64,000 nucleotides of DNA. It comes from Sarcophilus harrisii. Lineage: Eukaryota. The stretch covers positions 261,415,655-261,479,654 of the forward strand of contig CM109175.1 of the NCBI GenBank assembly GCA_048593225.1, written 5' to 3'. Made by a program: the position numbers and the translations under genes. Shown piece after piece: positions 9,882-64,000 of the stretch (the stretch's first letter is position 1; each line of letters begins with the position of its first letter). The notes beneath the pieces were generated by a model that saw only the letters and a program-made list of their open reading frames with translations, was not told the DNA's origin and ran no database searches.

Positions 9882-10001
9882 GGTTCCTTCCAGGAGACAC
9901 CGCCAGACACCATCGAGCTTGTGTGCTAGACCTCCTGCATGAAGCACTGACTGAAGCTGGACTCAGCCCCAAAGATATTGACTGTATTGCCTTTACTAAG
10001 G
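9882..10001 (+). CDS. OSGEP: OSGEP exon 2: (G)[39 protein letters not shown](G)
   Basis: Acceptor ttgccag| and donor G|gtatgg. Conserved with human. Confidence 0.9.
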
Positions 10002-51086: not shown

Positions 51087-51129
51087 ATGTCCTCGCGCGG
51101 CAGAGGTGGAAGCACTGGCAACGCCCGAG
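51087..51129 (+). CDS. PARP2: PARP2 coding exon 1: MSSRGRGGSTGNAR(G). The donor is uncertain. GAG|gttcgg at 51129/51130 is the only nearby phase-1 GT compatible with downstream exons. An alternative CAA|gtttcg at 51140 is phase 0.
   Basis: ATG is the first in the CpG island, in divergent orientation to RPPH1 as in human. The Arg/Gly-rich N-terminus resembles human MAARRRRSTGGGRARALNES. Confidence 0.4.
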
Positions 51130-52084: not shown

Positions 52085-52232
52085 GTGCAAAGGTAAAGCG
52101 TCGGTGCCCAGAGCCAGGAAAGAGTGACGCAGTCTCACCAAGCATTGAGTTTCGTTGGCAATGGGAAGACCCCGAGGGTGTCTGGCGCTGGTTCTCTTCT
52201 GCTCAGGATGTGGAGATCACAGAGGCTTTCAG
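52085..52232 (+). CDS. PARP2: WWE-domain cassette exon 1 (first half of WWE #1): (G)AKVKRRCPEPGKSDAVSPSIEFRWQWEDPEGVWRWFSSAQDVEITEAF(R). 148 nt, enters in phase 1 and leaves in phase 2.
   Basis: Strong acceptor ttgttccgtttttgtttcgtcttcag|GT and donor AG|gtaagt. Contains the W-x-W…W signature of WWE domains. An upstream stop in this frame at 51958 bounds the exon. Confidence 0.6.
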
Positions 52233-52689
52233 GTAAGTACTATTCAGAATTCCCTCTCATTTTCTATACCTGAAGTGAAGGGTTTGGGCCAAAGGGAGGG
52301 TCCTTTGGGACAATTCCTTTTTTTTTTTTTTTTTTTTTTTATTTAATAGCCTTTTATTTACAGGTTATATGCATGGGTAACTTTACAGCGTTAACAATTG
52401 CCTAACCTCTTGTTCCAATTTTTCGCCTCTTACCCCCCCACCCCCTCCCCTAGATGGCAGGATGACCAGTAGATGTTAAATATATTAAAATATAAATTAG
52501 ATACACAATAAGTATACATGACCAAAACGTTATTTTGCTGTACAAAAAGAATCAGACTCTGAAATATTGTACAATTAGCTTGTGAAGGAAATCAAAAATG
52601 CAGGTGTGCATAAATATAGGGATTGGGAATTCAATGTAATGGTTTTTAGTCATCTCCCAGAGTTCTTTTTCTGGGCGTAGCTGGTTCAG

Positions 52690-53200
52690 TTCATTACTGC
52701 TCCATTGGAAATGATTTGGTTGATCTCGTTGCTGAGGATGGCCTGGTCCATCAGAACTGGTCATCATATAGTATTGTTGTTGAAGCATATAATGATCTCC
52801 TGGTCCTGCTCATTTCACTCAGCATCAGTTCGTGTAAGTCTCTCCAGGCCTTTCTGAAATCATCCTGTTGGTCATTTCTTACAGAACAGTAATATTCCAT
52901 AACATTCATATGCCATAATTTATTCAACCATTCTCCAACTGATGGACATCCATTCAGTTTCCAGTTTCTAGCCACTACAAAAAGGGCTGCCACAAACATT
53001 CGTGCACATACAGGTCCCTTTCCCTTCTTTATGATCTCTTTGGGATATAAGCCCAGTAGTAACACTGCTGGATCAAAGGGTATGCACAGTTTGATAACTT
53101 TTTGAGCATAGTTCCAAACTACTCTCCAGAATGGTTGGATTCGTTCACAACTCCACCAACAATGCATCAATGTCTTTGGGACAATTTCTTACCCCTAGGA
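52690..53200 (-). mobile_element. L1 ORF2 C-terminal fragment (antisense) inside a PARP2 intron. The minus ORF 52751-53170 encodes HCWWSCERIQPFWRVVWNYAQKVIKLCIPF...
   Basis: 139-aa ORF with the L1 ORF2 tail signature. Confidence 0.7.
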
Positions 53201-54881
53201 GCATGAGAATTGTGTTTTCAGGGACCTGTGCTCTCACTTATACCCTTACCTATACTGAATTAGATTCATCCAGCTTTCTATAGTAGAGTCACTGACTGTA
53301 GATATTTAAGAAAATATTACCAGTCTCTAAGTCATATCAGTCTTAACAGTCTCTTAGAAGCTCTTCTACAGGGAATAATTCAGTTGGGTATTAATAGATC
53401 AGTTTTCTATTCACGCCATCCTGTTCAACTTCTCAAAAATGTTTCACAGCAACTAGTTCTGTGAGAAGATAAGGTTTGTGAGGCAAATCTTTTGCTTACT
53501 GTATTTTAAATTATGCTTGGCTTTGCTCCCATCAAGAAATTCTTACACTGGAGAATTGGATATTCTTTTTCCTTCTTGCAATCCTTTTGGATTGACTTTA
53601 TCTTGGGATTTAGTTTGTCTTTTATTTTTAAGTCTTTTGACATTATGGAACTTGCATCAATCTATTGGTAAGCATTTATTCAGGGCCTACTCTGTGCGAG
53701 GCGCTTTCTAAGCACAGGGGATTAAAAAAAAAAAAAAAAAACAAAAGACTGTCATCTTCTTCAAAGAGCCCATAGTCTAACAGAAGAGACGACACTCATA
53801 CATATGTACAAACAAGCTATATACAGGGCAAATAAGATGTAATCTAAAAAGAAGGCATTAAAATTAAACAGAGTTGGGTTATGTTTTCTATAAATTGGGA
53901 TTTTAGATGGGACTTTAAAAAAGCTAAGGAAATCAGTAGGTAAAGATGAAGAAGGGGATGTTCCAGGCATGAGAGATAGCCTGAGAAAATACCTGGAGTT
54001 GAGAGATAGAAGGTCTTGTTCTTGGAACAGCAAGGAGGCTGGGCCACTGCATAAGGGTATGTGAGGGGAGGGAAGGGGCTGTATAAAGTATGATAAGACA
54101 AGAAAGGTAGAAGATTGACTGGATATGGAGTGTTTTGAACTCCAAAGGATTTTTTATTTTATCTTGGAGTAGGGGAATGATATGTTTGATCCTGCCTTTA
54201 GGAAAATCATTTTGAGGGTTGGATAGAAGATGGATTAGTATGGGAAGAGACTTTAGAGAAGCAGACCCATCAGGAGTCTATAATTAGTTAATAATAATAA
54301 TTAATGATACAACATAATCAATTATAATTGTTAATAGTAATAACCAATATAATTAATAATAAATTATTAATTTAATTAGGTCATGGTTACAAATAATAAT
54401 TAATACTACAGTATTCCAAGGGTGAGGAGATTAAGGTCTGTTCTAGAGTGCTGGCCATATCAGAGGAAGGGAAGGGACCTATTTACATATTTAAGAGATG
54501 TTACATAGATTAGATTGATAGGCTTTACCAACTGATTGGATATGTGGGGTGAGAAATAGTGAGAAATCAAGGATGACACCTAGCTTGTGAGCCTGAGGAA
54601 CTAGGAGGATGGTGTTGCCCTTGACAATGATAGGGAAGATAGGAGATTAAGGTAACCCTATTGTCTAGATGTTCATTAGACATCCAGTTCTATATATTCG
54701 AAAGTCAGTTGGAATGGAAGATAAAAAGTTAGCAAGAGAAATCAGGGCAAGATAGATTTGAGAATGATCAGCATAGAAAAAATAATTATATTAATGTGAG
54801 CTGATAAGATCATAAAATAAAGGAGAGTTGGCCCAGATTGAGCACTTTGAGACACATGTTGTTAAAGGGTATGGCTTAGAT

Positions 54882-55069
54882 CACGGGTCCTCAAACTACA
54901 GCCTGGGCCAGATGCAGCAGCTGAGGACGTTTATCCCCCTCACCTAGGGCTATGAAGTTTCTTTATTTAAAGGCCCACAAAACAAAGTTTTTGTTTTTAC
55001 CATAGTCCGGCCCTCCAACAATCTGAGAGACAGTGAACTGGCCCCCATTTAAAAAGTTTGAGAGCCCCA
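54882..55069. mobile_element. Second copy of the same hAT-like MITE (~188 bp) with slightly degraded TIRs (CACGGGTCCTCAAACT...AGTTTGAGAGCCCCA). Exact 8-bp TSD GCTTAGAT (54874-54881 and 55070-55077). Lies in a PARP2 intron.
   Basis: ~85% identical over its length to the copy at 15943-16122. TSDs seen directly. Confidence 0.7.
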
Positions 55070-56518
55070 GCTTAGATGATGATCCAGCATTTGAAAAGTA
55101 TAACTTACTTGAGAATTTAGCAAAGGAGATGGAGAATGAAGGATTAATTGATAAGAGGAGAACCACCAAAAAAACCCTAATCTCTCTGACTAGAGAGAAG
55201 AGAGTATCTAGGAGGAGAAGGTGATCAGCAGTGTCAAAGGCTATAGAGAGATGGAGAAGAATGAGGATTGAGAATAAACCATTTAATTTGGCAATTAAGT
55301 CATCAATAACTTTAGAGAAATAAATTTTATTAGAACAGAGAGGATGAAAGCCAGATTGAAGGGATAAAAAGACTGAAAGAAGAGGAAGTGGAGATACCTG
55401 TTGGTCTGGAGTTCAGTCACAAAAGTCAAGAGATAAAAGGACAAGGGATGAAAGTATCAAGTGAGCATTTTTTGAGGATGGGAGAGACATAGGCATGTTT
55501 TGCAGGTAGTAGGGAAGGAGCCATTAGGGAGAGATTGAGGATAAATGATAGAATGGAGATAACAGAGGGGTCAGTCTGTTGGAGAAGATGGAATAGAATG
55601 AGATTGCTTTTATATAGGGAGAATAGCCTTGGTTTATGTAGTAGGTACCTCATCAGGTGAAATGGATGAAGAAGGAGATAGTTGCAAAAGATATCATATT
55701 TATAAATGATATGAAATAAGAAAGAGGGAAAAGAGGGAGTTTGTGGCAGATAGCCTCAATATTTTCTGTACAATGTGAGGCAAGGATCTCAGCTGAGCAG
55801 GTGGTGGGGAGTGCTGTGGGAAATTTGAGGAGGGATAAAATGGTTTGGAAGAGATGCTATGTTGAGTGGGATAGTGAATTGATAAGTGAGGTATAAATAG
55901 CATTGAGGACCCAATTGAGGTTGTATAATAAGTTTGTATAACATAAGTAGAATCAGAACAGTTGCATGATTTTCTCCACCTTCTTTAGCAGCACGACTGA
56001 GGCTTGGCAGGATGAACTTGGTGATATGATAAAGGGTCTAGGGACTCTGAAAACAATGTAAAAGTTGAACTGGTTTTTGAGAATTGAGGGTTCAGTAGAT
56101 TGAAGATCACTATGTAGATAATTGACTTGACAACAGGAGACAAAGCGACATTATGGTCAGATAAGTGGATTTGGGAATTTTTGAACATGGAAGTGGTACA
56201 TTTTGTGGGTGATTGCAAGATGAAGGGTATGATCATCTTTGTGTGATGCTGAGATGAATGATGCTGAAATGAGGTCATAGGAAGTGAGTAGGTTGAGGAA
56301 CTGAATAGATGGGATGTTTAAGGAAGGGTTAGTAAGTATTTTGAAGCTTTCTAGTATGAGAGTAGGCATTGTGGAGAAGAGAAAAAATGTGAATCATGTA
56401 CTGAACTTATTGATAAATTAAGGGGAGTAATTTAGAGGGCCTGAAGAAAATAGCTACCAGAATTTTGATTTTACAAACTTGGGTAGGGATGATTGTCTCA
56501 AACTGCGTTATTTTTCAG

Positions 56519-56658
56519 GAAAGGAAGTGCTTTGGTAAATGTCTCATCAGAAAGTGGAAATGTGAAGCTTCAGATTGATTTCAAGAAGATGGTCCAGAGG
56601 AACACAAAGACAAGGACTGAGCGGAAGATTGCTGTTGCCATCAAGAAACAGGACTCCT
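56519..56658 (+). CDS. PARP2: WWE-domain cassette exon 2 (second half of WWE #1): (R)KGSALVNVSSESGNVKLQIDFKKMVQRNTKTRTERKIAVAIKKQDS(Y). 140 nt.
   Basis: Acceptor gcgttatttttcag|G and donor T|gtaagt. Carries the WWE C-terminal motif Y/L-x-IDF-x2-M-x-Q-x-N…R-x-I-x-R. Confidence 0.6.
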
Positions 56659-57158
56659 GTAAGTGTATTCTTTTATCAAGAGGTATTTGTTTTAAGAACA
56701 CATACCATATGCCTCATTATTATTATTTCATTCATAGATATAATCTCTACAAATTTCATTGATTGTCAACATAATGATTTATAGTGCCACTCTCTAATAA
56801 CATTTTATAATATGATTATTATCCTTGTTCTCTGGCATTATCATTAAAAAGAAGTTTTGTTAGGTTTTCTTCATAGGTTACAAACAAAATATCAGGGGAT
56901 TGATTTGTCTCTTGGGATCTCTGCATTACTTTTTTGGTTTCTGAGATCATTGGATGATAGATTGCTTGTAAAAGATGAAGCACCTAATAAATGTTTATTG
57001 ACTCAAATTCAAAAGACCCAGCAAAACTTCGAGGAAAGAAAGAAATACAACTTATAATACATCCTTTAAAAAAGAAAGAGTAATTCAGAATCTTGTTACT
57101 TTTATCTATTTTACCCTCATTGCATCAAAATTCTTCTTTTGATATTATTACGTTTTAG

Positions 57159-57371
57159 ATTTTGTCTGGCAGTGGCAGAGTGATGAGGAGGATGGCTGGA
57201 TCCCATATGATGCCAAAACTTGCCTGGCTCTGGAAGCAGCTCTAGGAGAAAGCAATGAGTCAAAAATAAATGTGGTGTTTGGCCGAAAACATTATACTCT
57301 GGATGTGGGCAACATGGTACAAATCAATTGCAAAAGTGGATACCTGCGCAAAATAGAACGCCAGCCTTCAG
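57159..57371 (+). CDS. PARP2: WWE-domain cassette exon 3 (complete WWE #2): (Y)FVWQWQSDEEDGWIPYDAKTCLALEAALGESNESKINVVFGRKHYTLDVGNMVQINCKSGYLRKIERQPS(A). 213 nt.
   Basis: Acceptor cgttttag|AT and donor G|gtatat. Near-textbook WWE domain (W-x-W-x-D-x-G-W-x-PY…LE-x-A…Y-x-LD…M-x-Q-x-N…R-x-I-x-R). Confidence 0.65.
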
Positions 57372-58113
57372 GTATATATAGTTATCAGTTTAATGAGGAA
57401 TGCCTGAGATTCAACATGGGATTGATGTATGGAGAAAGAATTAGCCAATTTGATATTCTTATGGATAAAGTAAAGGAAGAGAGAATAAGCCACACAAGGA
57501 ATGTGATATACAAAGAAGTACTGAGACATACATTAATGTATGTAACCTGAAAAGAACAGAGTTAGACAAAGAGACACTAAAGAGAAAACCTAGTCATTAT
57601 TTCAGGATAGGGGCTGGTTTATTCACAGAAGCATGGAGAATATTGTGAAGAGCAAGTCTCAGTTCAAAGAGGAAATCAAAGAGTAGGCACCAAAAATCAC
57701 AAAAAAACACCAGCAATTGAGGAGCTTAGAGCTTTTGCTCACGTTCCTTTTCTACTTGAAAGATGATCTTGGGGCCATTAGCTCTTTAAGTATTGTAGAT
57801 TAAGGAGAAAACTACTCAGAGGCAATAGTGATATCAAAAATATCGGATACAGTAATTGTTGATAACAATATGTTGAAATTTTAACTTTTTCTACTGCCCA
57901 GCCCACCCTTTGTGAAAAATATCCATTTTTCAGAGAAAAGGTTACATATTATATTCCCTTCATCCTTTTCTTTTTTAAAATGTGTTTTTATTGGTATCTT
58001 TTGGTTTTATAAAATTTATAATTTTCTCCTACTCCACTTCCAGAGAGATCTCACTTGTAACAAAGAATTCTGTCTTTTCTTTATGTTGTGCTTATCTCTT
58101 TTTTTGACTTTAG

Positions 58114-58290
58114 CGGCTGTGGAGTTGACTGAAGCCAATGGAAACAGTATTGGAAACATATCCAATGTTTCTTCTGTGGAATGCCCTTCTAAGGCCAAGA
58201 AAGCCCGAGGTGAATTCTTGGATCAAGGAGTGAAACAAGCACCTGTGGCAAAGGATGCTGAGATAAATGATAAGAACAAAGAGAATCAAG
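58114..58290 (+). CDS. PARP2: PARP2 basic N-terminal region exon: (A)AVELTEANGNSIGNISNVSSVECPSKAKKARGEFLDQGVKQAPVAKDAEINDKNKENQ(V). Corresponds to human …NNGNTAPEDSSPAKKTRRCQRQESKK…KANKDRTEDKQ.
   Basis: Acceptor ttttgactttag|CG and donor CAA G|gtgggt. Lys-rich NLS/DNA-binding-like region in frame with downstream PARP2 exons. Confidence 0.7.
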
Positions 58291-59379
58291 GTGGGTTTCA
58301 AGTGGGAGAGAAGGGAGCATCAAAGACGGTTTTAGGGAAAAGGCTTACATTGGATCCTTCAGTTCTAGTGAGTAACTTTTGTGCTACTTTGAGATGTGAT
58401 CTGAAGTAATCATCTTCTGGAGCTACATCAGACTACTGACCCTATTATTCAACTAAAATTGCCATCTCCAAAATTACCATTGGTACCTTAATTGCCAAAT
58501 CTAATTTTCCTTTTCATTCCCAATCCTTCTTGATCTCTCTGTGTTACCTCACACTACTGATTCCTTTCACCTCTTGGTTCTCTGATCTTTTGGAGGTTCC
58601 CTTTCAGTTTCCTTTTCTGGTTTTTCAACTTTGTCATGCCCATTAATTAAAGGTATTCCCAGTGGCTCTATCTTGTCCTCCTTTCTCCTAATTATCCAAA
58701 CAGGATTGGTCAGGAAATTGAAAGATTACCATATGAAAAGGGTGCTGGAAATGAAGGTGGCCTAGCTGTACCAGATCTAAAAGTACATTATAAAGCAGTG
58801 GTCATCAAAACCATTTAGTACTGGCTAAGAAATAGAGAAGTTGATCAGTGGAATAGGTTAGGTTCACAGGACAAAATAGTCAATAATTATAGCAATCTAG
58901 TGTTTGACAAACCCAAAGACCCCAGCTTTTGGAATAGGAACTCACTGTTTGACAAAAACTGCTGGGAAAATTGGAAACTAGTATGGCAGAAATTAGCATT
59001 GACCCACACATAACACCATACACCAAGATAAGGTTGAAATGGGTTCATGATTTATACATAAAGAATGATATTATAAACAGATTAGAAGAACATAGGATAG
59101 TTTACCTCTCAGACCTGTAGAGGAGGAAGGAATTTGTGATCAAAGAAGAACTAGAGATCGTTATTGATCAAAAAATAGATAATTTTGATTATATTAAGTT
59201 AAAAGTTTTTGTACAAAAAAAACTAATGCAGATAAGATTAGAAAGAAAGCAATAAACTGGAAAAACATTTTTACATTCAAAGGACCTGATAAAGGCCTCA
59301 TTTCTAAAATATAGAGAGAATTGACTCTAATCTATAAGAAATCTTCAGTTGATAAATGGTCAAAGGATATGAACAGACA

Positions 59380-60458: not shown

Positions 60459-60529
60459 TTTCTGTGAAGACCTTGTTACTGAAGGGCAAAGCTCCAGTAG
60501 ATCCAGAGTGTACAGTTAAGGTGGGAAAG
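60459..60529 (+). CDS. PARP2: PARP2 exon: (V)SVKTLLLKGKAPVDPECTVKVGK (human SVKALLLKGKAPVDPECTAKVGK)
   Basis: Acceptor ctttcctcag| and donor AAG|gtgaga. Near-identical to human PARP2. Confidence 0.9.
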
Positions 60530-61266
60530 GTGAGAACCTCTTGACCTAAACCTTAATCAAACTTTTGTCACCATTTAGAAAATAATGTCTTACCTTTAGT
60601 AGATGTTGCTACTAGAGTAGAATTTAGTGTTAGTGAATCATCCCTCTTGAGGCTGGAGAACTATGGAACGGTATCAGCCTTATCTCCCCTTTGTCAGCAG
60701 GTTGTAGATACTGTCCCCAAAGAGCATTTGATCACATGAGAGTGTTTATTGAGTATGAGGCAGAAGCACTAAGAAGGATTGGGCCATAGCTTTCCTGCTG
60801 GAAATAGGTGCTTTAATTGTGATGGGAGATGTTTGAAGGAGTCTGCTGTTCTTGCATCAGGAATCTACAAGTGAAGATGAGCGCTTTGATCAGGACCAGG
60901 TCTGGCACATTTAAGTTTTGCTTTTTCAGAACAAGTCCAAGTAGAGAGGAGAAAAGTCCTGAGGGCTTGCTCAGGGCCCACTGTATCCTGATGTCAAAGG
61001 GAGTAGAGTATACTGGAGAGAAACCAGGATTTGGGGTTCCAAGAAATCTGGGTTCCAGTGCTGCCTTTAACAGTGATCAGCTGTATGTAATTGTGAACAA
61101 TTGTTTAGCCTCTTTGAGCCATATTCGCCTCTATTATAAAAGGATAGTGATAGAGCTTAAGGATCCCTCTCCCAAGTATTGTTATGAAGATGACATTGAT
61201 TATGTAAAGTACTGTACAAACAATAATTCTTTTTAGTAAATGCCAGCTCTCCTTGTCATCTTCTAG

Positions 61267-61317
61267 GCCCATGTATACTGTGAAGGGGATGATGTGTATG
61301 ATGTTATGCTAAACCAG
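61267..61317 (+). CDS. PARP2: PARP2 exon, start of WGR domain: AHVYCEGDDVYDVMLNQ
   Basis: Acceptor cttctag| and donor CAG|gtaaga. Human AHVYCEGNDVYDVMLNQ. Confidence 0.92.
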
Positions 61318-62683
61318 GTAAGAAGGAAAGGTCTGTTTGAAAAATAACTTTTTTGTTGATTATTAAGGTCCTCGTGTTCACATGTTCCTAATTCAGGATT
61401 CCTTATATTAGGTACTAACTGGCTGGCAATACTGTAACACAATACTAGTGTATTACTGTTAGAATCAACTCTTTCCCAAGACTTCTTAAGCTGAAGCTAT
61501 CTGTCAGCAGGTTAATATAAGATAAATCACTTTATTTTTTGTCTTTCTTTTTTGAAGTTAACTTATAATTCTTATTTAGGAGTGGTTATGGGGAGTGGAA
61601 AAAAGGAAATTTTCCATTTAATTGTCCCACCAATTACAACAGCTTTATCAATTACAAATTGTTTTGCTATCTTATACCCACTTTTTCCTTGTTCACTAGG
61701 AAAGTGGCAGTTTCTTTGTGCCTATATCTTCAGAATGAGGGCTTTGGATTAAAAAAACTAGAAGGTCCATTCTCACTCTTCATTTTTTTTTAAACTGTAT
61801 TTAGGAGACTGGAAAGTGAAGTGTACATTAACCAAAGAAAGTATGTGCTAGACAGATAGTGCAGGGAACAGGATTCCAGTGTGAAGGCCAAGTACTACTA
61901 TGTGGAATTTCCTTCACTCCACTGAATCCACAGCTTTAGCTTGAGTTAGATTTGCCCTCTTGCTGCTATTTACTGGTCACATTCTTTCCAGAATGGTTTA
62001 CATGGCCCCCACTCCACAATCCAACTTGAAGGGACAGAAGCCAAGCAAAAGGGCTTGCTTGAAGGGAGTAAAGGACTTGCTCTTTGTCCTTTTCTACCAT
62101 TGTCCTGCTCTTAGCCCTCTTTCAGATTGCTACAAATCACAGTTGTGGTCAGTACCAACAAAAGAATTAACATCTAGAACCAAGAACTAGGGTAATCCTG
62201 CACCTCTAGGTATGAGAGAGATTGTTTCTTTGTAATAAATACATTGTAAAATTATTTATTGTTTTCCTTGGAGAAATGATCACAAGAGAATAGAAGGGAT
62301 TAAGAATGAGGAGAGTTAAATGCTCAGAAATGTGGGAGAAGGAGCAGAGAGACAAAATAGAAGAAGCCAGGACAGATTACTTAGTGCTAAATTCAGTTTC
62401 ACAATGTTCACTGGCTTTTATTCATCCTTAGGATTGCAGAATGTTTTCTAAAAGTTATAAGGAAATGGCAGTTTCTTTTAATTCTCATTCCACTTTCTCA
62501 GCTTTCTCTTAAAATGAAGATCTCTCTCCCACACTACTTATTTCCCTCAGGAAAAATTGGTGTTTATATCCAAAGAATATTTTATTTATGTGAATTTTTA
62601 TTCATATATTTATGTGAATTTTCTATAAACCTAGTTTTTGTTTGTGTGTCACTTCTTATTTCAATGGTTGTAGACCAATCTCC

Positions 62684-62780
62684 AATTCAACAATAACAAG
62701 TATTATATCATCCAGCTGCTGGAAGATGACGGACAGAGAAACTTCAGTGTCTGGATGAGATGGGGCCGAGGTAATGGCTA
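62684..62780 (+). CDS. PARP2: PARP2 exon, WGR domain: TNLQFNNNKYYIIQLLEDDGQRNFSVWMRWGR(V)
   Basis: Acceptor ggttgtag| and donor G|gtaatg. Human TNLQFNNNKYYLIQLLEDDAQRNFSVWMRWGR. Confidence 0.92.
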
Positions 62781-63306
62781 TAGTAGGGGATTTGAGAGCA
62801 GGGAATTCAACATTTGAAAAGCTGGAAAGACAATTTGCCAATAACTGAAGGATTTCTGGGCTAGAATTGATCGTGTGGGAATCCTGAAGGGTAGGAGTGA
62901 TGTAAAAAACAATCTGGGTTTCTTGTGGAAAGAAATATAATACCTCCTCCTGAGGTGGAAGTGCAAAGAAAGGCAGTACCCTTCTCAAGAAATTTCTATC
63001 CTGTAGCATCCAAGAGGACTCTATCAAAATTAAGAGTAATTTGGAAGTTAGATTTGAGTCTTACTCTCTTTTATTGACAAGATATATATATATATATTAT
63101 TTCTATTAACGAAATCAAGACATCCCTAAACTCTTCCTGATTCCTTAAATTCTGTAATTTGTTTGTTCCCTTCAACCATTGTGGTCTGCTTTTTGCCCAC
63201 AGTGAATAGCAGTCATGAAGAATAATGTTTTTCTTGGTCTTAAGCAATTGTATAGTGCTAGAGCTTCTCTGAAGGACTGATATTCTCATTGGCATTTCCT
63301 TTGCAG

Positions 63307-63382
63307 TTGGGAAAGTTGGACAGCACAGTTTGGTGACCTGTTCTGGAGACCTCAACAAAGCCAAGGAAATATTTCAGAAGAA
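63307..63382 (+). CDS. PARP2: PARP2 exon, WGR domain: (V)GKVGQHSLVTCSGDLNKAKEIFQK(K)
   Basis: Acceptor tttgcag| and donor AA|gtgagt. Human VGKMGQHSLVACSGNLNKAKEIFQKK. Confidence 0.92.
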
Positions 63383-63930
63383 GTGAGTGGCCTAGCAAGT
63401 GGGCAGGAATGTATCCTCCAAAACATCTCTTCTTTTAACTAAGATATCTTCTTAGTCAAGTAGAAATGATCAGCTTTACCTCTCTGAAGCTTATTAAAGA
63501 GACCATAAAATTCAAGAATGTGGCATAGGGGTGGATTATTTGGGAAGGCAAGGGGAAAAGGAAACTTCCAGTATCTGGAGAATATCTAACTAGACATTAG
63601 ATCTAGTCACTTTCCTCCTTCCCATCAAAAATATATGCCAAGACCTTTAGAAATAGCTATCAGGACAGAAAAATGGGAGCATTTTTAGTGATTAATGTAC
63701 ATATACATTGAAAACCCTTAGGATTCTATTCATCCCTCTAAGTTCTCTCTCTTTACTGGGCTTTTCCATCCCTCCAGAATCCTTGAGGTTTTATGGGAAA
63801 GTGATGTATGAGAGTATTTGATACAGTAAGTGTGGCTTTGTAAGAACGCAAAGTTGTTCTGCCAGGACTGCTGAAGATGTTCTTGTAGCATCTTCCAAGG
63901 GATTTACTCCCTTCTCCTTTGAAACTACAG

Positions 63931-64000
63931 ATTTTTTGACAAAACAAAGAATAGTTGGGAAGATCGTGGCAGCTTTGAGAAAGTCCCTGGGAAATATGAT
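63931..64000 (+). CDS. PARP2: PARP2 exon (partial, runs off the window): (K)FFDKTKNSWEDRGSFEKVPGKYD…
   Basis: Acceptor gaaactacag|. Human KFLDKTKNNWEDREKFEKVPGKYD. The gene continues beyond 64000. Confidence 0.9.

What the first reader, a model, noticed from the sequence alone, without database searches (positions are those of the whole stretch)
52085..57371. Three-exon, frame-neutral cassette encoding two tandem WWE domains inside PARP2
Three + strand exons (52085-52232, 56519-56658, 57159-57371) lie between PARP2 exon 1 and its basic N-terminal exon. Each has strong polypyrimidine/AG acceptors and GT donors. Together they encode two near-canonical WWE domains. The first, split across two exons, reads FRWQWEDPEGVWRWF…ITEAF|RKGSALVNV…VKLQIDFKKMVQRNTKTRTERKI. 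The second reads FVWQWQSDEEDGWIPYDAKTCLALEAALGE…VVFGRKHYTLDVGNMVQINCKSGYLRKIERQ. The exon lengths are 148, 140 and 213 nt, totalling 501 nt or 167 codons. The cassette enters and leaves in phase 1. Those are exactly the phases needed to splice between the phase-1 donor after PARP2 exon 1 (51129) and the phase-1 acceptor of the 58114 exon. Inclusion or skipping both keep the PARP2 frame. WWE domains bind iso-ADP-ribose within poly(ADP-ribose). They are known in PARP7/11/12/13/14, RNF146 and DTX proteins. To my knowledge they are not part of the PARP2 architecture (N-terminal basic region, WGR, catalytic). A PAR-reader module fused to PARP2 would couple PAR recognition to a DNA-break-activated PAR writer. 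PARP2 is known to be recruited by PARP1-made PAR. Alternatively the cassette may be a lineage-specific alternative isoform, or relics of a captured WWE gene.
Basis: partly seen in the sequence, partly recalled or inferred. Interest (0 to 1): 0.88.

Follow-up and report, generated by a model that had tools for sequence, protein, structure and literature searches.

The report
Ancestral tandem WWE exons in marsupial PARP2
The three exons are real and encode two WWE (poly-ADP-ribose-reading) domains at the front of a Tasmanian-devil PARP2 gene, but this is the old animal-wide form of PARP2 that placental mammals lost, not a new fusion.

Summary
Exons 52085-52232, 56519-56658 and 57159-57371 (+) have AG acceptors and GT donors. 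They total 501 nt, stay open in one frame, and score 117 bits (E = 4.7e-34) against Pfam WWE as two domains. They join PARP2 exon 1 (51087-51129) to the basic exon in phase 1. That exon ends at 58290, not 58291.

The novelty claim does not hold. Perina et al. 2014 (PMC4245714) already report WWE domains at the N-terminus of non-mammalian PARP2. Public PARP2 proteins of platypus, frog, electric ray and oyster carry WWE-WWE-WGR-PARP_reg-PARP. A partial turtle model shows WWE-WWE-WGR. The devil model aligns collinearly with them. Intron positions and phases match in manta, turtle and platypus. This is inherited, not captured.

The window is Sarcophilus harrisii or a near-identical relative. The new point is modest: marsupials, like the monotreme, keep the module, so the loss may be specific to placental mammals.

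WWE2 keeps all four RNF146 ligand-contact residues and models as a WWE fold. WWE1 has Leu in place of Tyr144 (Ile in oyster, gapped in turtle). A PAR-reading role is inferred, not shown. Whether inclusion is constitutive or alternative is untested; only one database protein joins exons b, c and d.

The parts
50489..50833 (-). RPPH1 (nuclear RNase P RNA), divergent neighbour of PARP2. It serves as the locus anchor.
   Evidence: Rfam RF00009 scores 248.8 bits over the full model 1-301. Platypus has the same head-to-head arrangement.
51087..51129 (+). PARP2 coding exon 1 (MSSRGRGGSTGNAR plus 1 nt), with a phase-1 donor G|gttcgg.
   Evidence: There is an in-frame stop 9 nt upstream of the ATG. Read-through of the donor hits a stop after 27 codons. 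The peptide aligns with the platypus N-terminus MAARRRTGRNGGPRR.
52085..52232 (+). Cassette exon a: linker plus the N-terminal half of WWE1 (…FRWQWEDPEGVWRWF…ITEAF). Enters in phase 1 and leaves in phase 2.
   Evidence: The in-frame ORF upstream of it has no ATG, so it must be spliced from a phase-1 exon. The boundary after 'AFR' has the same position and phase in platypus, turtle and manta.
56519..56658 (+). Cassette exon b: the C-terminal half of WWE1 (KGSALVNV…KLQIDFKKMVQRNTKTRTERKIAVAIKKQDS). Leaves in phase 1.
   Evidence: P0001 starts at the Met of KKMVQRN in this exon. The boundary before Y-[FY]-x-W-Q-W is shared with platypus, turtle, manta and oyster.
57159..57371 (+). Cassette exon c: the complete WWE2 (FVWQWQSDEEDGWIPYD…HYTLDVGNMVQINCKSGYLRKIERQPS). 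Phase 1 in and out.
   Evidence: Pfam best stretch 97-163 covers profile positions 1-67 of 67. The AlphaFold model has pLDDT 90.5. Foldseek gives TM 0.85 and rmsd 1.5 Å to TRIP12 WWE, and every hit with E ≤ 0.015 is a WWE domain. The residues equivalent to RNF146 Y107, Y144, Q153 and R163 are W, Y, Q and R.
58114..58290 (+). PARP2 basic, NLS-like exon d (AAVELTEANGN…PSKAKKARG…KENQ), equivalent to the exon that directly follows exon 1 in placental PARP2. Phase 1 in and out.
   Evidence: P0001 joins exon c to this exon. It aligns to 'SVAVELNGAGG…VVKKARG' of platypus and to the naked mole-rat PARP2 N-terminus.
60459..64000 (+). Five WGR-region exons (60459-60529, 61267-61317, 62674-62770, 63307-63382, 63931-64000+). 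The gene runs off the end of the window.
   Evidence: tblastn hits at 79-94% identity to my recalled human PARP2 sequence. Splice sites were read, and the frame is continuous.

Best explanation
These three exons are the ancestral N-terminal tandem-WWE module of PARP2, retained in a marsupial (Tasmanian devil or a near-identical relative).

The proposed protein is: short N-terminus (exon 1), WWE1 (exons a+b), WWE2 (exon c), basic NLS-like linker (exon d), WGR, and then the catalytic part beyond the window. This layout appears in PARP2 from oyster, rays, frog, turtle (a partial model reaching WGR) and platypus. Placental mammals have the same gene with exon 1 spliced straight to exon d. That form equals a clean, frame-neutral loss of exons a-c.

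Likely mechanism (inferred): WWE2 has an intact adenine and phosphate pocket. It would bind the ADP-ribose or iso-ADP-ribose unit of poly(ADP-ribose), bringing or holding PARP2 on sites already PARylated, for example by PARP1. WWE1 lacks the phosphate-contacting tyrosine in the six orthologues where that position aligns, so it more likely serves as a structural or accessory partner.

Shown: exon anatomy, domain identity, orthology, and residue conservation.
Inferred: the exon 1 to exon a splice, constitutive inclusion, and PAR binding.
For: Locus identity:
- RPPH1 lies head-to-head with exon 1, as in platypus.
- WGR exons lie downstream.

Domain identity:
- Pfam WWE scores 117 bits as two domains.
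- The WWE2 model has pLDDT 90.5, and its best structural matches are ligand-bound TRIP12, HUWE1 and RNF146 WWE domains.

Orthology:
- A search with P0001 found PARP2-named proteins of platypus XP_028933514.1, the frog Leptobrachium, the ray Narcine and the oyster Crassostrea gigas. All have two WWE stretches plus WGR, PARP_reg and PARP. A partial Chelydra turtle model has two WWE stretches plus WGR.
- The devil model aligns collinearly with them.
- The a|b, b|c and c|d boundaries share position and phase in manta, turtle and platypus.
- Manta (MAS+G|gt) and oyster (MGRK+G|gt) also have a phase-1 intron after the first few codons.

No sign of decay:
- The ORF is intact. Only 1 of 20000 shuffles is open in that frame.
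- Its Pfam score is at least as high as that of the orthologues, which range from 84 to 117 bits.
- Its identity to outgroups is not systematically lower than that of platypus.

Transcript or model evidence:
- UniParc protein P0001 (UPI0002738F50) is 100% identical to the window and joins exon b to c to d.
- In oyster, 2.4-3.5 kb Logan contigs carry whole 690-744 aa products of a gene that spans 7.45 kb in the genome. These must be spliced mRNAs containing both the WWE and PARP parts.

Ligand pocket:
- WWE2 has W, Y, Q, R at RNF146 positions Y107, Y144, Q153, R163 in all seven species. At position 144, WWE1 has Leu (Ile in oyster) and is gapped in turtle.
- The residue roles come from PMC8853533 and PMC9367489.

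Literature:
- WWE in non-mammalian PARP2 is reported in PMC4245714.
- The human PARP2 N-terminal region binds PAR and is required for branched-chain synthesis, per PMC6089979.
Against: - No RNA-level evidence was available for the 51129>52085 or 52232>56519 junctions in this species.
- P0001 looks like an automated model. It starts at an internal Met and reads through the exon d donor into the intron, so it does not prove a full-length WWE-PARP2 mRNA.
- The exon 1 donor (G|gttcgg) is weak by eye.
- Platypus and turtle models have exon 1 and exon a fused, so the exon structure is not identical everywhere.
- No other marsupial sequence could be compared. Constraint within marsupials is therefore inferred from intactness, not measured.
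- PAR binding is predicted from four aligned residues and a model. It has not been measured for any PARP2 WWE, to my knowledge.
- The catalytic exons lie outside the window.
Confidence: 0.85

Rival explanations
1. Regulated cassette. The exons are functional, but marsupial PARP2 makes substantial amounts of two isoforms: an ancestral-type isoform with the WWE domains, and a placental-type isoform without them (exon 1 spliced to exon d). An exon 1 to exon c single-WWE form is also possible.
For: - All three splice patterns keep the frame.
- The exon 1 donor is weak by eye.
- NCBI lists several PARP2 isoforms in snake, ray and coelacanth. One snake isoform starts at the same internal Met as P0001.
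- The placental form equals exact skipping of exons a-c.
Against: - No junction data of any kind were available.
- The donors and acceptors of exons a-c are strong, which favours constitutive use.
- Frame-neutrality is an ancient property of the gene and is also present in manta. It is therefore not evidence of regulated skipping in marsupials.
Confidence: 0.2
2. Decaying relic. The exons are no longer spliced into PARP2 in marsupials and are on their way to the loss already completed in placental mammals.
For: - Placental mammals did lose them.
- There is no direct transcript evidence for the exon 1 to exon a junction.
Against: - A 166-codon open frame with canonical splice sites, expected in about 1 of 20000 shuffles.
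- A Pfam score of 117 bits, equal to or above that of the orthologues.
- All WWE2 pocket residues are kept.
- The branch is not accelerated relative to platypus.
- P0001 includes exons b and c.
Confidence: 0.04
3. Separate or truncated product. The WWE exons mainly serve a short WWE-only protein, such as the 192-aa P0001 form that ends by intron retention after exon d. On this reading they are not part of a full-length PARP2, or they came from a captured WWE gene.
For: - P0001 is such a product: an internal Met start, and read-through of the donor at 58290 to the stop at 58407-58409.
- The closest non-PARP relatives of this WWE pair are fused to Myb/SANT-like, MADF or BED domains in other vertebrates.
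Against: - Exon a has no ATG of its own, and none lies in its upstream ORF. A complete WWE1 therefore needs PARP2 exon 1.
- The model is collinear with PARP2 proteins from oyster to platypus, and intron positions are shared. This excludes a capture.
- P0001 has the look of an incomplete automated model.
Confidence: 0.03

Closest known systems
WWE-bearing PARP2 orthologues of non-placental animals (platypus XP_028933514.1, Leptobrachium frog, Narcine and Mobula rays, Crassostrea gigas XP_011443308, and a partial Chelydra turtle model; noted by Perina et al. 2014, PMC4245714)
   Same: - Same order: short N-terminus, WWE1, WWE2, 'S-x-A-V' linker, basic KKAR/KRPR patch, VKTLLLKGKAPVDPEC, WGR.
- Same intron positions and phases around and within the WWE region in manta, turtle and platypus.
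- Same pocket pattern: WWE2 has W/Y/Q/R, and WWE1 has Leu or Ile at the Tyr144 position.
   Different: - This one is in a therian mammal, whereas the paper describes the feature as non-mammalian.
- Cassette identity to the nearest available orthologue is only 48%.
- Platypus and turtle models lack the intron between exon 1 and exon a.
Placental (human, mouse, naked mole-rat) PARP2
   Same: - Same locus partner, RPPH1. I recall the bidirectional promoter from Amé et al. 2001; here it was tested only for devil and platypus.
- Same exon 1, basic exon d and WGR.
- The devil skip isoform MSSRGRGGSTGNAR|AAVELTEANG… mirrors mole-rat MAERRRARSGRGKLAS|AVLNETKRDNNG….
   Different: - Placental PARP2 has no WWE. 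Its N-terminal region is a short disordered basic segment (PMC4245714; Pfam lists only WGR for P0306).
- Its PAR binding is attributed to that basic region (PMC6089979).
Single WWE readers of ADP-ribose or iso-ADP-ribose: TRIP12, HUWE1, RNF146
   Same: - WWE2 has the same fold: TM 0.85 to TRIP12 (9BKS), 0.80-0.83 to HUWE1 (6PFL), 0.76-0.78 to RNF146 (3V3L).
- It keeps the aromatic, Tyr, Gln and Arg residues that contact the AMP half of the ligand.
   Different: - Sequence identity is only 28-35%.
- The alignment shows no counterpart of the RNF146 C-terminal extension or of Lys175, and positions 110 and 114 differ. Preference for iso-ADPr over ADPr or ATP is therefore open.
- Those proteins are E3 ligases, not PARPs.
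Tandem WWE modules of Deltex (DTX1, Drosophila Deltex) and ZAP/PARP13
   Same: - Two consecutive WWE domains.
- DTX1 is the best PDB sequence hit, with both of its domains matched.
- These are the top structural hits for the platypus tandem model.
- As reported for ZAP, one domain (WWE2) carries the ligand pocket (PMC8853533).
   Different: - Whole-tandem superposition is poor: TM 0.42-0.47, rmsd 9-14 Å, although the model is confident (pTM 0.86). The predicted packing of the two domains therefore differs.
- There is no DTC/RING or zinc-finger context.
Clade 3 WWE PARPs (PARP7, 11, 12, 13, 14)
   Same: [quoted passage not shown]
   Different: In those proteins, WWE precedes a mono-ART catalytic domain without WGR or the helical regulatory domain. 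Here the WWE domains are N-terminal to a WGR-PARP_reg-PARP enzyme of Clade 1 (PMC2964712, PMC4245714).

Membership tests
WWE domain (Pfam PF02825) | Profile HMM score above the curated gathering threshold | tested here: met
   117 bits against a cut-off of 21.1 (E = 4.7e-34), in two stretches.
WWE domain (Pfam PF02825) | WWE fold: a curved beta-sheet with one helix | tested here: met
   WWE2, encoded by exon c, gives an AlphaFold model with pLDDT 90.5 and six strands plus one helix. All 24 Foldseek PDB hits with E ≤ 0.015 are WWE domains, the best being TRIP12 at TM 0.85. Devil WWE1 was not modelled because it is a spliced sequence. The platypus WWE1-WWE2 model has pLDDT 93.8.
iso-ADP-ribose/PAR-binding WWE domains (RNF146 type) | Residues equivalent to RNF146 Y107 (aromatic), Y144, Q153 and R163 | tested here: met
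   WWE2 has W, Y, Q, R, and so do all six orthologues compared. WWE1 has W, L, Q, R, so the Tyr144 position is not met in WWE1. The RNF146 sequence was checked against PDB 3V3L. Residue roles come from PMC8853533 and PMC9367489.
iso-ADP-ribose/PAR-binding WWE domains (RNF146 type) | Residues of the phosphoribose sub-pocket (RNF146 R110, W114, K175 and the C-terminal extension) | tested here: not met
   WWE2 aligns D and I at positions 110 and 114, and nothing aligns at position 175. TRIP12 and HUWE1 differ from RNF146 in the same way. I recalled these three positions from memory.
iso-ADP-ribose/PAR-binding WWE domains (RNF146 type) | Measured binding to PAR or iso-ADPr | not testable with these tools
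   Needs ITC or pull-down with recombinant protein.
PARP2 orthologue (Clade 1 PARP) | WGR domain following the basic N-terminal region, collinear with known PARP2 | tested here: met
   Five WGR-region exons are in frame and 79-94% identical to my recalled human PARP2 sequence. The model is collinear with eight PARP2 proteins.
PARP2 orthologue (Clade 1 PARP) | Conserved genomic neighbour (RPPH1 head-to-head) | tested here: met
   Rfam RNaseP_nuc scores 248.8 bits at 50489-50833 (-), 254 bp from the ATG. Platypus has the same arrangement.
PARP2 orthologue (Clade 1 PARP) | PARP regulatory and catalytic domains with the H-Y-E triad | not testable with these tools
   The gene runs off the window at 64000, before these exons.
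WWE-bearing (ancestral-type) PARP2 | Tandem WWE placed between the initiator exon and the basic/WGR region, with shared intron positions and phases | tested here: met
   Collinear alignment. The a|b, b|c and c|d boundaries are identical in position and phase in manta, turtle and platypus. Oyster shares b|c and c|d approximately.
WWE-bearing (ancestral-type) PARP2 | WWE exons and PARP2 exons joined in one mRNA in this species | tested here: inconclusive
   Only P0001 (UniParc UPI0002738F50) joins exons b, c and d. Nothing was found for exon 1-a or a-b.
Clade 3 WWE PARPs (PARP7/11/12/13/14) | WWE adjacent to a mono-ART catalytic domain, with no WGR or regulatory domain | tested here: not met
   A WGR domain follows the WWE pair here. 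The orthologues carry WGR plus PARP_reg.
Deltex-type tandem WWE | Tandem WWE with Deltex inter-domain packing and a RING-DTC C-terminus | tested here: not met
   TM is 0.44-0.47 over the tandem, using the platypus model. There is no RING or DTC; the context is PARP2.

The most novel reading that the evidence does not exclude
Marsupial PARP2 may be a living intermediate of the placental domain loss. On this reading, the phase-neutral WWE exons are alternatively spliced in the devil, as a+b+c or as c alone. One gene would then produce both an ancestral-type PARP2 with a WWE PAR-reader and a placental-type PARP2 without one. The WWE2 pocket would be the original basis of the PAR-dependent recruitment and branching activity that human PARP2 now achieves with its basic N-terminal region.
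Probability: 0.15. Interest if true: 0.45.

Novelty: new member of a known kind. Interest (0 to 1): 0.3.

Why it matters
Nearly all work on PARP2 uses the human and mouse proteins, whose N-terminus is a short disordered basic tail. This locus shows that the older tandem-WWE N-terminus persisted into therian mammals. Together with platypus, this suggests the loss is specific to placental mammals rather than to mammals as a whole. The one paper found on the subject describes the feature as non-mammalian.

The result gives a natural comparison for an existing question: how PARP2 senses PARP1-made PAR and makes branched chains (PMC6089979). A folded reader domain may have done that job before the basic tail did.

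This refines known evolutionary history. It is not a new architecture or mechanism, and it needs RNA and binding data before it carries weight.

Tried and rejected
- **Therian intron gain (rejected).** I first thought the 955-nt intron between exon 1 and exon a was a therian gain that created a skippable cassette, because platypus and turtle have exon 1 fused to exon a. Manta ray and oyster both have a phase-1 intron after the first 3-4 codons. The intron is therefore more likely ancient and was lost in those two models.
- I used P0001, the contiguous exon c, and the platypus tandem instead.
- **Marsupial PARP2 records (uninformative).** The word-indexed protein search gave one hit for the cassette. 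For the WGR region it returned only short fragments and no full-length PARP2. The absence of other marsupial WWE-PARP2 records therefore says nothing either way.
- **Exact look-ups (nothing on record).** P0001, Narcine, Latimeria and Thamnophis proteins returned nothing.
- **Wang et al. 2012 (not held).** PMC3278890 was not in the library. I took the residue roles from two later papers.
- **Literature searches (empty).** Searches for PARP2+WWE+marsupial, PARP2+WWE+platypus and eutherian loss found nothing relevant.
- **Exon d end (corrected).** My first setting of 58291 broke the frame. I corrected it to 58290.
- **dN/dS (not attempted).** The nearest available orthologue is 48% identical, so synonymous sites are saturated.

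Full report
**1. The observation**

The three + strand intervals are bounded by polypyrimidine/AG acceptors and GT donors. Two of the donors are a perfect gtaagt. Joined, they make 501 nt with one open frame of 166 codons plus split codons at both ends. That is not chance: only 1 of 20000 shuffles of the same bases is open in that frame, and none of 5982 windows of 501 nt from the local introns is open. The exons are also richer in G+C than the introns (0.48 against 0.38).

The translation scores 117 bits against Pfam WWE, where the cut-off is 21.1 (E = 4.7e-34), in two stretches.

PARP2 exon 1 starts at the ATG at 51087, which has an in-frame stop 9 nt upstream. It ends at 51129 in phase 1. 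The next PARP2 exon begins at 58114 in phase 1. My first model broke frame because I set that exon's end at 58291. With 58290, the whole chain of ten exons reads through into the WGR domain, and it does so with or without the cassette.

Each WWE domain is itself a phase 1-1 unit. Exons a+b total 288 nt and exon c is 213 nt.

**2. The locus and the organism**

A full-length nuclear RNase P RNA gene lies on the minus strand at 50489-50833, 254 bp from the PARP2 ATG. Downstream exons encode the PARP2 WGR region.

Other ORFs in the window belong to PIP4P1/TMEM55B, APEX1, OSGEP and KLHL33. I named these from their peptide sequences by my own knowledge.

The APEX1 exons are 100% identical to Sarcophilus harrisii APEX1 over the first three coding exons. 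The four mismatches in the last aligned piece fit its overlap with intron-derived sequence. They are less similar to Antechinus, Sminthopsis and other marsupials. The window is therefore Tasmanian devil or something nearly identical.

**3. What the cassette is**

The only close database protein is P0001, a 192-residue UniParc entry (UPI0002738F50) that is 100% identical to the window. It starts at the Met of KKMVQRN in exon b and continues through exon c into exon d. It then reads through the donor at 58290 to the stop at 58407-58409. Its UniParc number is 224 away from that of devil APEX1 isoform X2, so it is probably an automated devil gene model of 2012. That origin is my inference.

An exhaustive HMMER search with P0001 found 236 relatives. 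Among the best are proteins with two WWE stretches followed by WGR, PARP_reg and PARP. Their sources name them PARP2 or poly(ADP-ribose) polymerase. They come from platypus, the frog Leptobrachium, the electric ray Narcine and the Pacific oyster. A partial snapping-turtle model has two WWE stretches plus WGR. A garter-snake isoform carries one WWE, and there are shark and manta fragments. Of the 99 best representatives, 6 carry WGR, 22 carry a PARP catalytic domain, and 12 carry the Deltex C-terminal domain.

The devil model aligns collinearly with these PARP2 proteins from the first WWE to the WGR domain.

**4. Orthology at the level of gene structure**

I retrieved the genomic loci of platypus, turtle, oyster and manta PARP2.

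- The boundary after 'AFR' (phase 2), the boundary before 'Y-[FY]-x-W-Q-W' (phase 1), and the boundary after 'ER..S' (phase 1) fall at the same aligned residue and in the same phase in devil, platypus, turtle and manta.
- Oyster shares the last two boundaries. Its first lies six residues away.
- Manta and oyster also have a phase-1 intron after the first three or four codons. The platypus and turtle models have no intron there.

The cassette is therefore inherited and at least as old as bilaterians, not a capture.

Exon a has no ATG, and none lies in its upstream ORF. Read-through of exon 1 stops after 27 codons. The exon 1 to exon a splice is thus the only way to make a complete WWE1. This splice is inferred, not observed.

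**5. Already in the literature**

Perina et al. [quoted passage not shown] Citarelli et al. 2010 assign WWE only to Clades 2 and 3 (PMC2964712).

Searches combining PARP2 and WWE with marsupial, platypus or eutherian found nothing.

A naked mole-rat PARP2 fragment goes from the exon 1 peptide straight to the basic region and WGR. This matches the devil's hypothetical skip isoform.

The new element is narrow. Both non-placental mammal lineages keep the module (devil here, platypus in a public record), so the loss may be specific to placental mammals.

**6. Signs of function**

- The devil cassette scores as high against Pfam as any orthologue. It scores 117 bits, against 84-117 for the others.
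- Its identity to turtle, frog, coelacanth, manta and oyster is 46, 42, 46, 37 and 37%. For platypus the values are 52, 37, 42, 44 and 37%. The devil is not systematically lower.
- I checked my recalled RNF146 WWE sequence against PDB 3V3L and it matched 100%.
- In an alignment with RNF146, TRIP12, HUWE1 and DTX1, WWE2 of all seven PARP2 species has Trp, Tyr, Gln and Arg at the RNF146 positions Y107, Y144, Q153 and R163. WWE1 has Leu at position 144 in devil, platypus, frog and coelacanth, Ile in oyster, and is gapped in turtle. Manta was not in this alignment.
- Q153 and Y107 hold the adenine. R163 and Y144 hold the phosphate (PMC8853533). Mutating Y107, Y144 or R163 abolishes recruitment to PAR (PMC9367489).
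- The positions of the RNF146 phosphoribose sub-pocket are not conserved, as is also the case in TRIP12 and HUWE1.
- The AlphaFold model of exon c has pLDDT 90.5. It superposes on ligand-bound TRIP12, HUWE1 and RNF146 WWE domains at TM 0.76-0.85.
- A model of the platypus tandem is confident (pLDDT 93.8, pTM 0.86). It matches the Deltex and ZAP tandems only domain by domain, with TM 0.42-0.47 over the pair. The predicted inter-domain packing therefore differs.

**7. Mechanism**

Most likely, WWE2 reads ADP-ribose units in PAR and tethers PARP2 to already modified sites, while WWE1 acts as an accessory domain. This fits the report that the human N-terminal region binds PAR and is needed for branched-chain synthesis (PMC6089979). 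In placental mammals the basic tail alone would carry that role.

All of this is inference from residues and models. No binding data exist for any PARP2 WWE, as far as I could find.

**8. What remains open**

Whether inclusion is constitutive or alternative in the devil cannot be decided here. The splice sites of exons a-c are strong, and the exon 1 donor is weak by eye. Frame-neutrality is an ancient property of the gene, so it is not evidence of regulated skipping. RNA-seq junction counts and a comparison across marsupial genomes would settle it.

**9. Verdict**

This is a new (marsupial) member of a known kind, of modest interest.

Noticed in passing
window 50489-50833 (-) and 50834-51086: A full-length nuclear RNase P RNA gene lies head-to-head with PARP2, with only 254 bp between its 5' end and the PARP2 ATG. 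A TATA-like 'ctatataag' sits about 25-30 bp upstream of the RNA gene. Platypus has the same pairing (L001 9471-9818 minus strand, ATG at 10001). No RNase P RNA was found in the 10 kb upstream of turtle PARP2 or the 3 kb upstream of manta PARP2.
   Followed up: partly
window 1-50500; L001 1-30572: The window's gene order is PIP4P1/TMEM55B (+), APEX1 (-), OSGEP (+), KLHL33 (+), a 19-kb AT-rich stretch without long ORFs, then RPPH1 (-) and PARP2 (+). Platypus instead has a RING-finger gene with SNORA79 and two SNORD126 copies, then RPPH1, PARP2, and a 2484-aa gene on the minus strand. No SNORA79 or SNORD126 is in the window. The RPPH1-PARP2 block therefore seems to sit in a rearranged, probably inverted, context in the devil.
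   Followed up: partly
window 52751-53170 (-): A 139-aa ORF (MMHCWWSCERIQPFW…LLGLYPKEI…) inside the 4.3-kb intron between exons a and b looks like the C-terminal part of a LINE-1 ORF2. It is probably a retroposon insertion that lengthened this intron; the platypus intron is about 2.7 kb. I identified it by eye only.
   Followed up: no
P0002, P0004, P0009, P0010: The closest relatives of this WWE pair outside WGR-PARP proteins are fused to DNA-binding domains typical of domesticated transposases. These are Myb_DNA-bind_4 (lungfish LOC122790579, with three WWE domains, and a coelacanth record named 'PARP2 isoform X4'), MADF, and BED zinc finger. The coelacanth case may be a read-through or a chimeric model.
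   Followed up: no
L001 10001-10189; L002 10001-10138: In the platypus and snapping-turtle models, the initiator peptide and the first WWE half-exon are one continuous exon. Devil, manta and oyster have a phase-1 intron there. This could be intron loss in two lineages or a difference in annotation.
   Followed up: partly
P0003 residues ~620-686; L001 20176-20470: The C-terminus of the platypus PARP2 record XP_028933514.1 reads as an unrelated Pro/Gly/Cys/Trp-rich sequence. The PARP catalytic profile is matched only at positions 2-93 of 199. This looks like a frameshift or an assembly or annotation error in that record.
   Followed up: no
platypus tandem model m3caa5b034fca: The PARP2 tandem WWE is predicted with high confidence (pTM 0.86). 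It superposes on the Deltex and ZAP tandems only at TM 0.42-0.47, which suggests a different packing of the two domains.
   Followed up: partly
window 52320-52341; 54280-54378; 54001-58000: There is a poly-T run just after exon a and an AT-rich 13-nt tandem array. G over C skew is strong (0.24-0.38) across the introns from 54 to 58 kb. None of this is explained.
   Followed up: no
P0015 (Thamnophis elegans PARP2 isoform X4): This snake isoform starts at the same internal Met (MVQKN…) as the devil P0001. It also carries about four tandem copies of an acidic ~35-residue repeat (EEGSQLASGDLDASTSVPAEKP…) between WWE2 and WGR.
   Followed up: no
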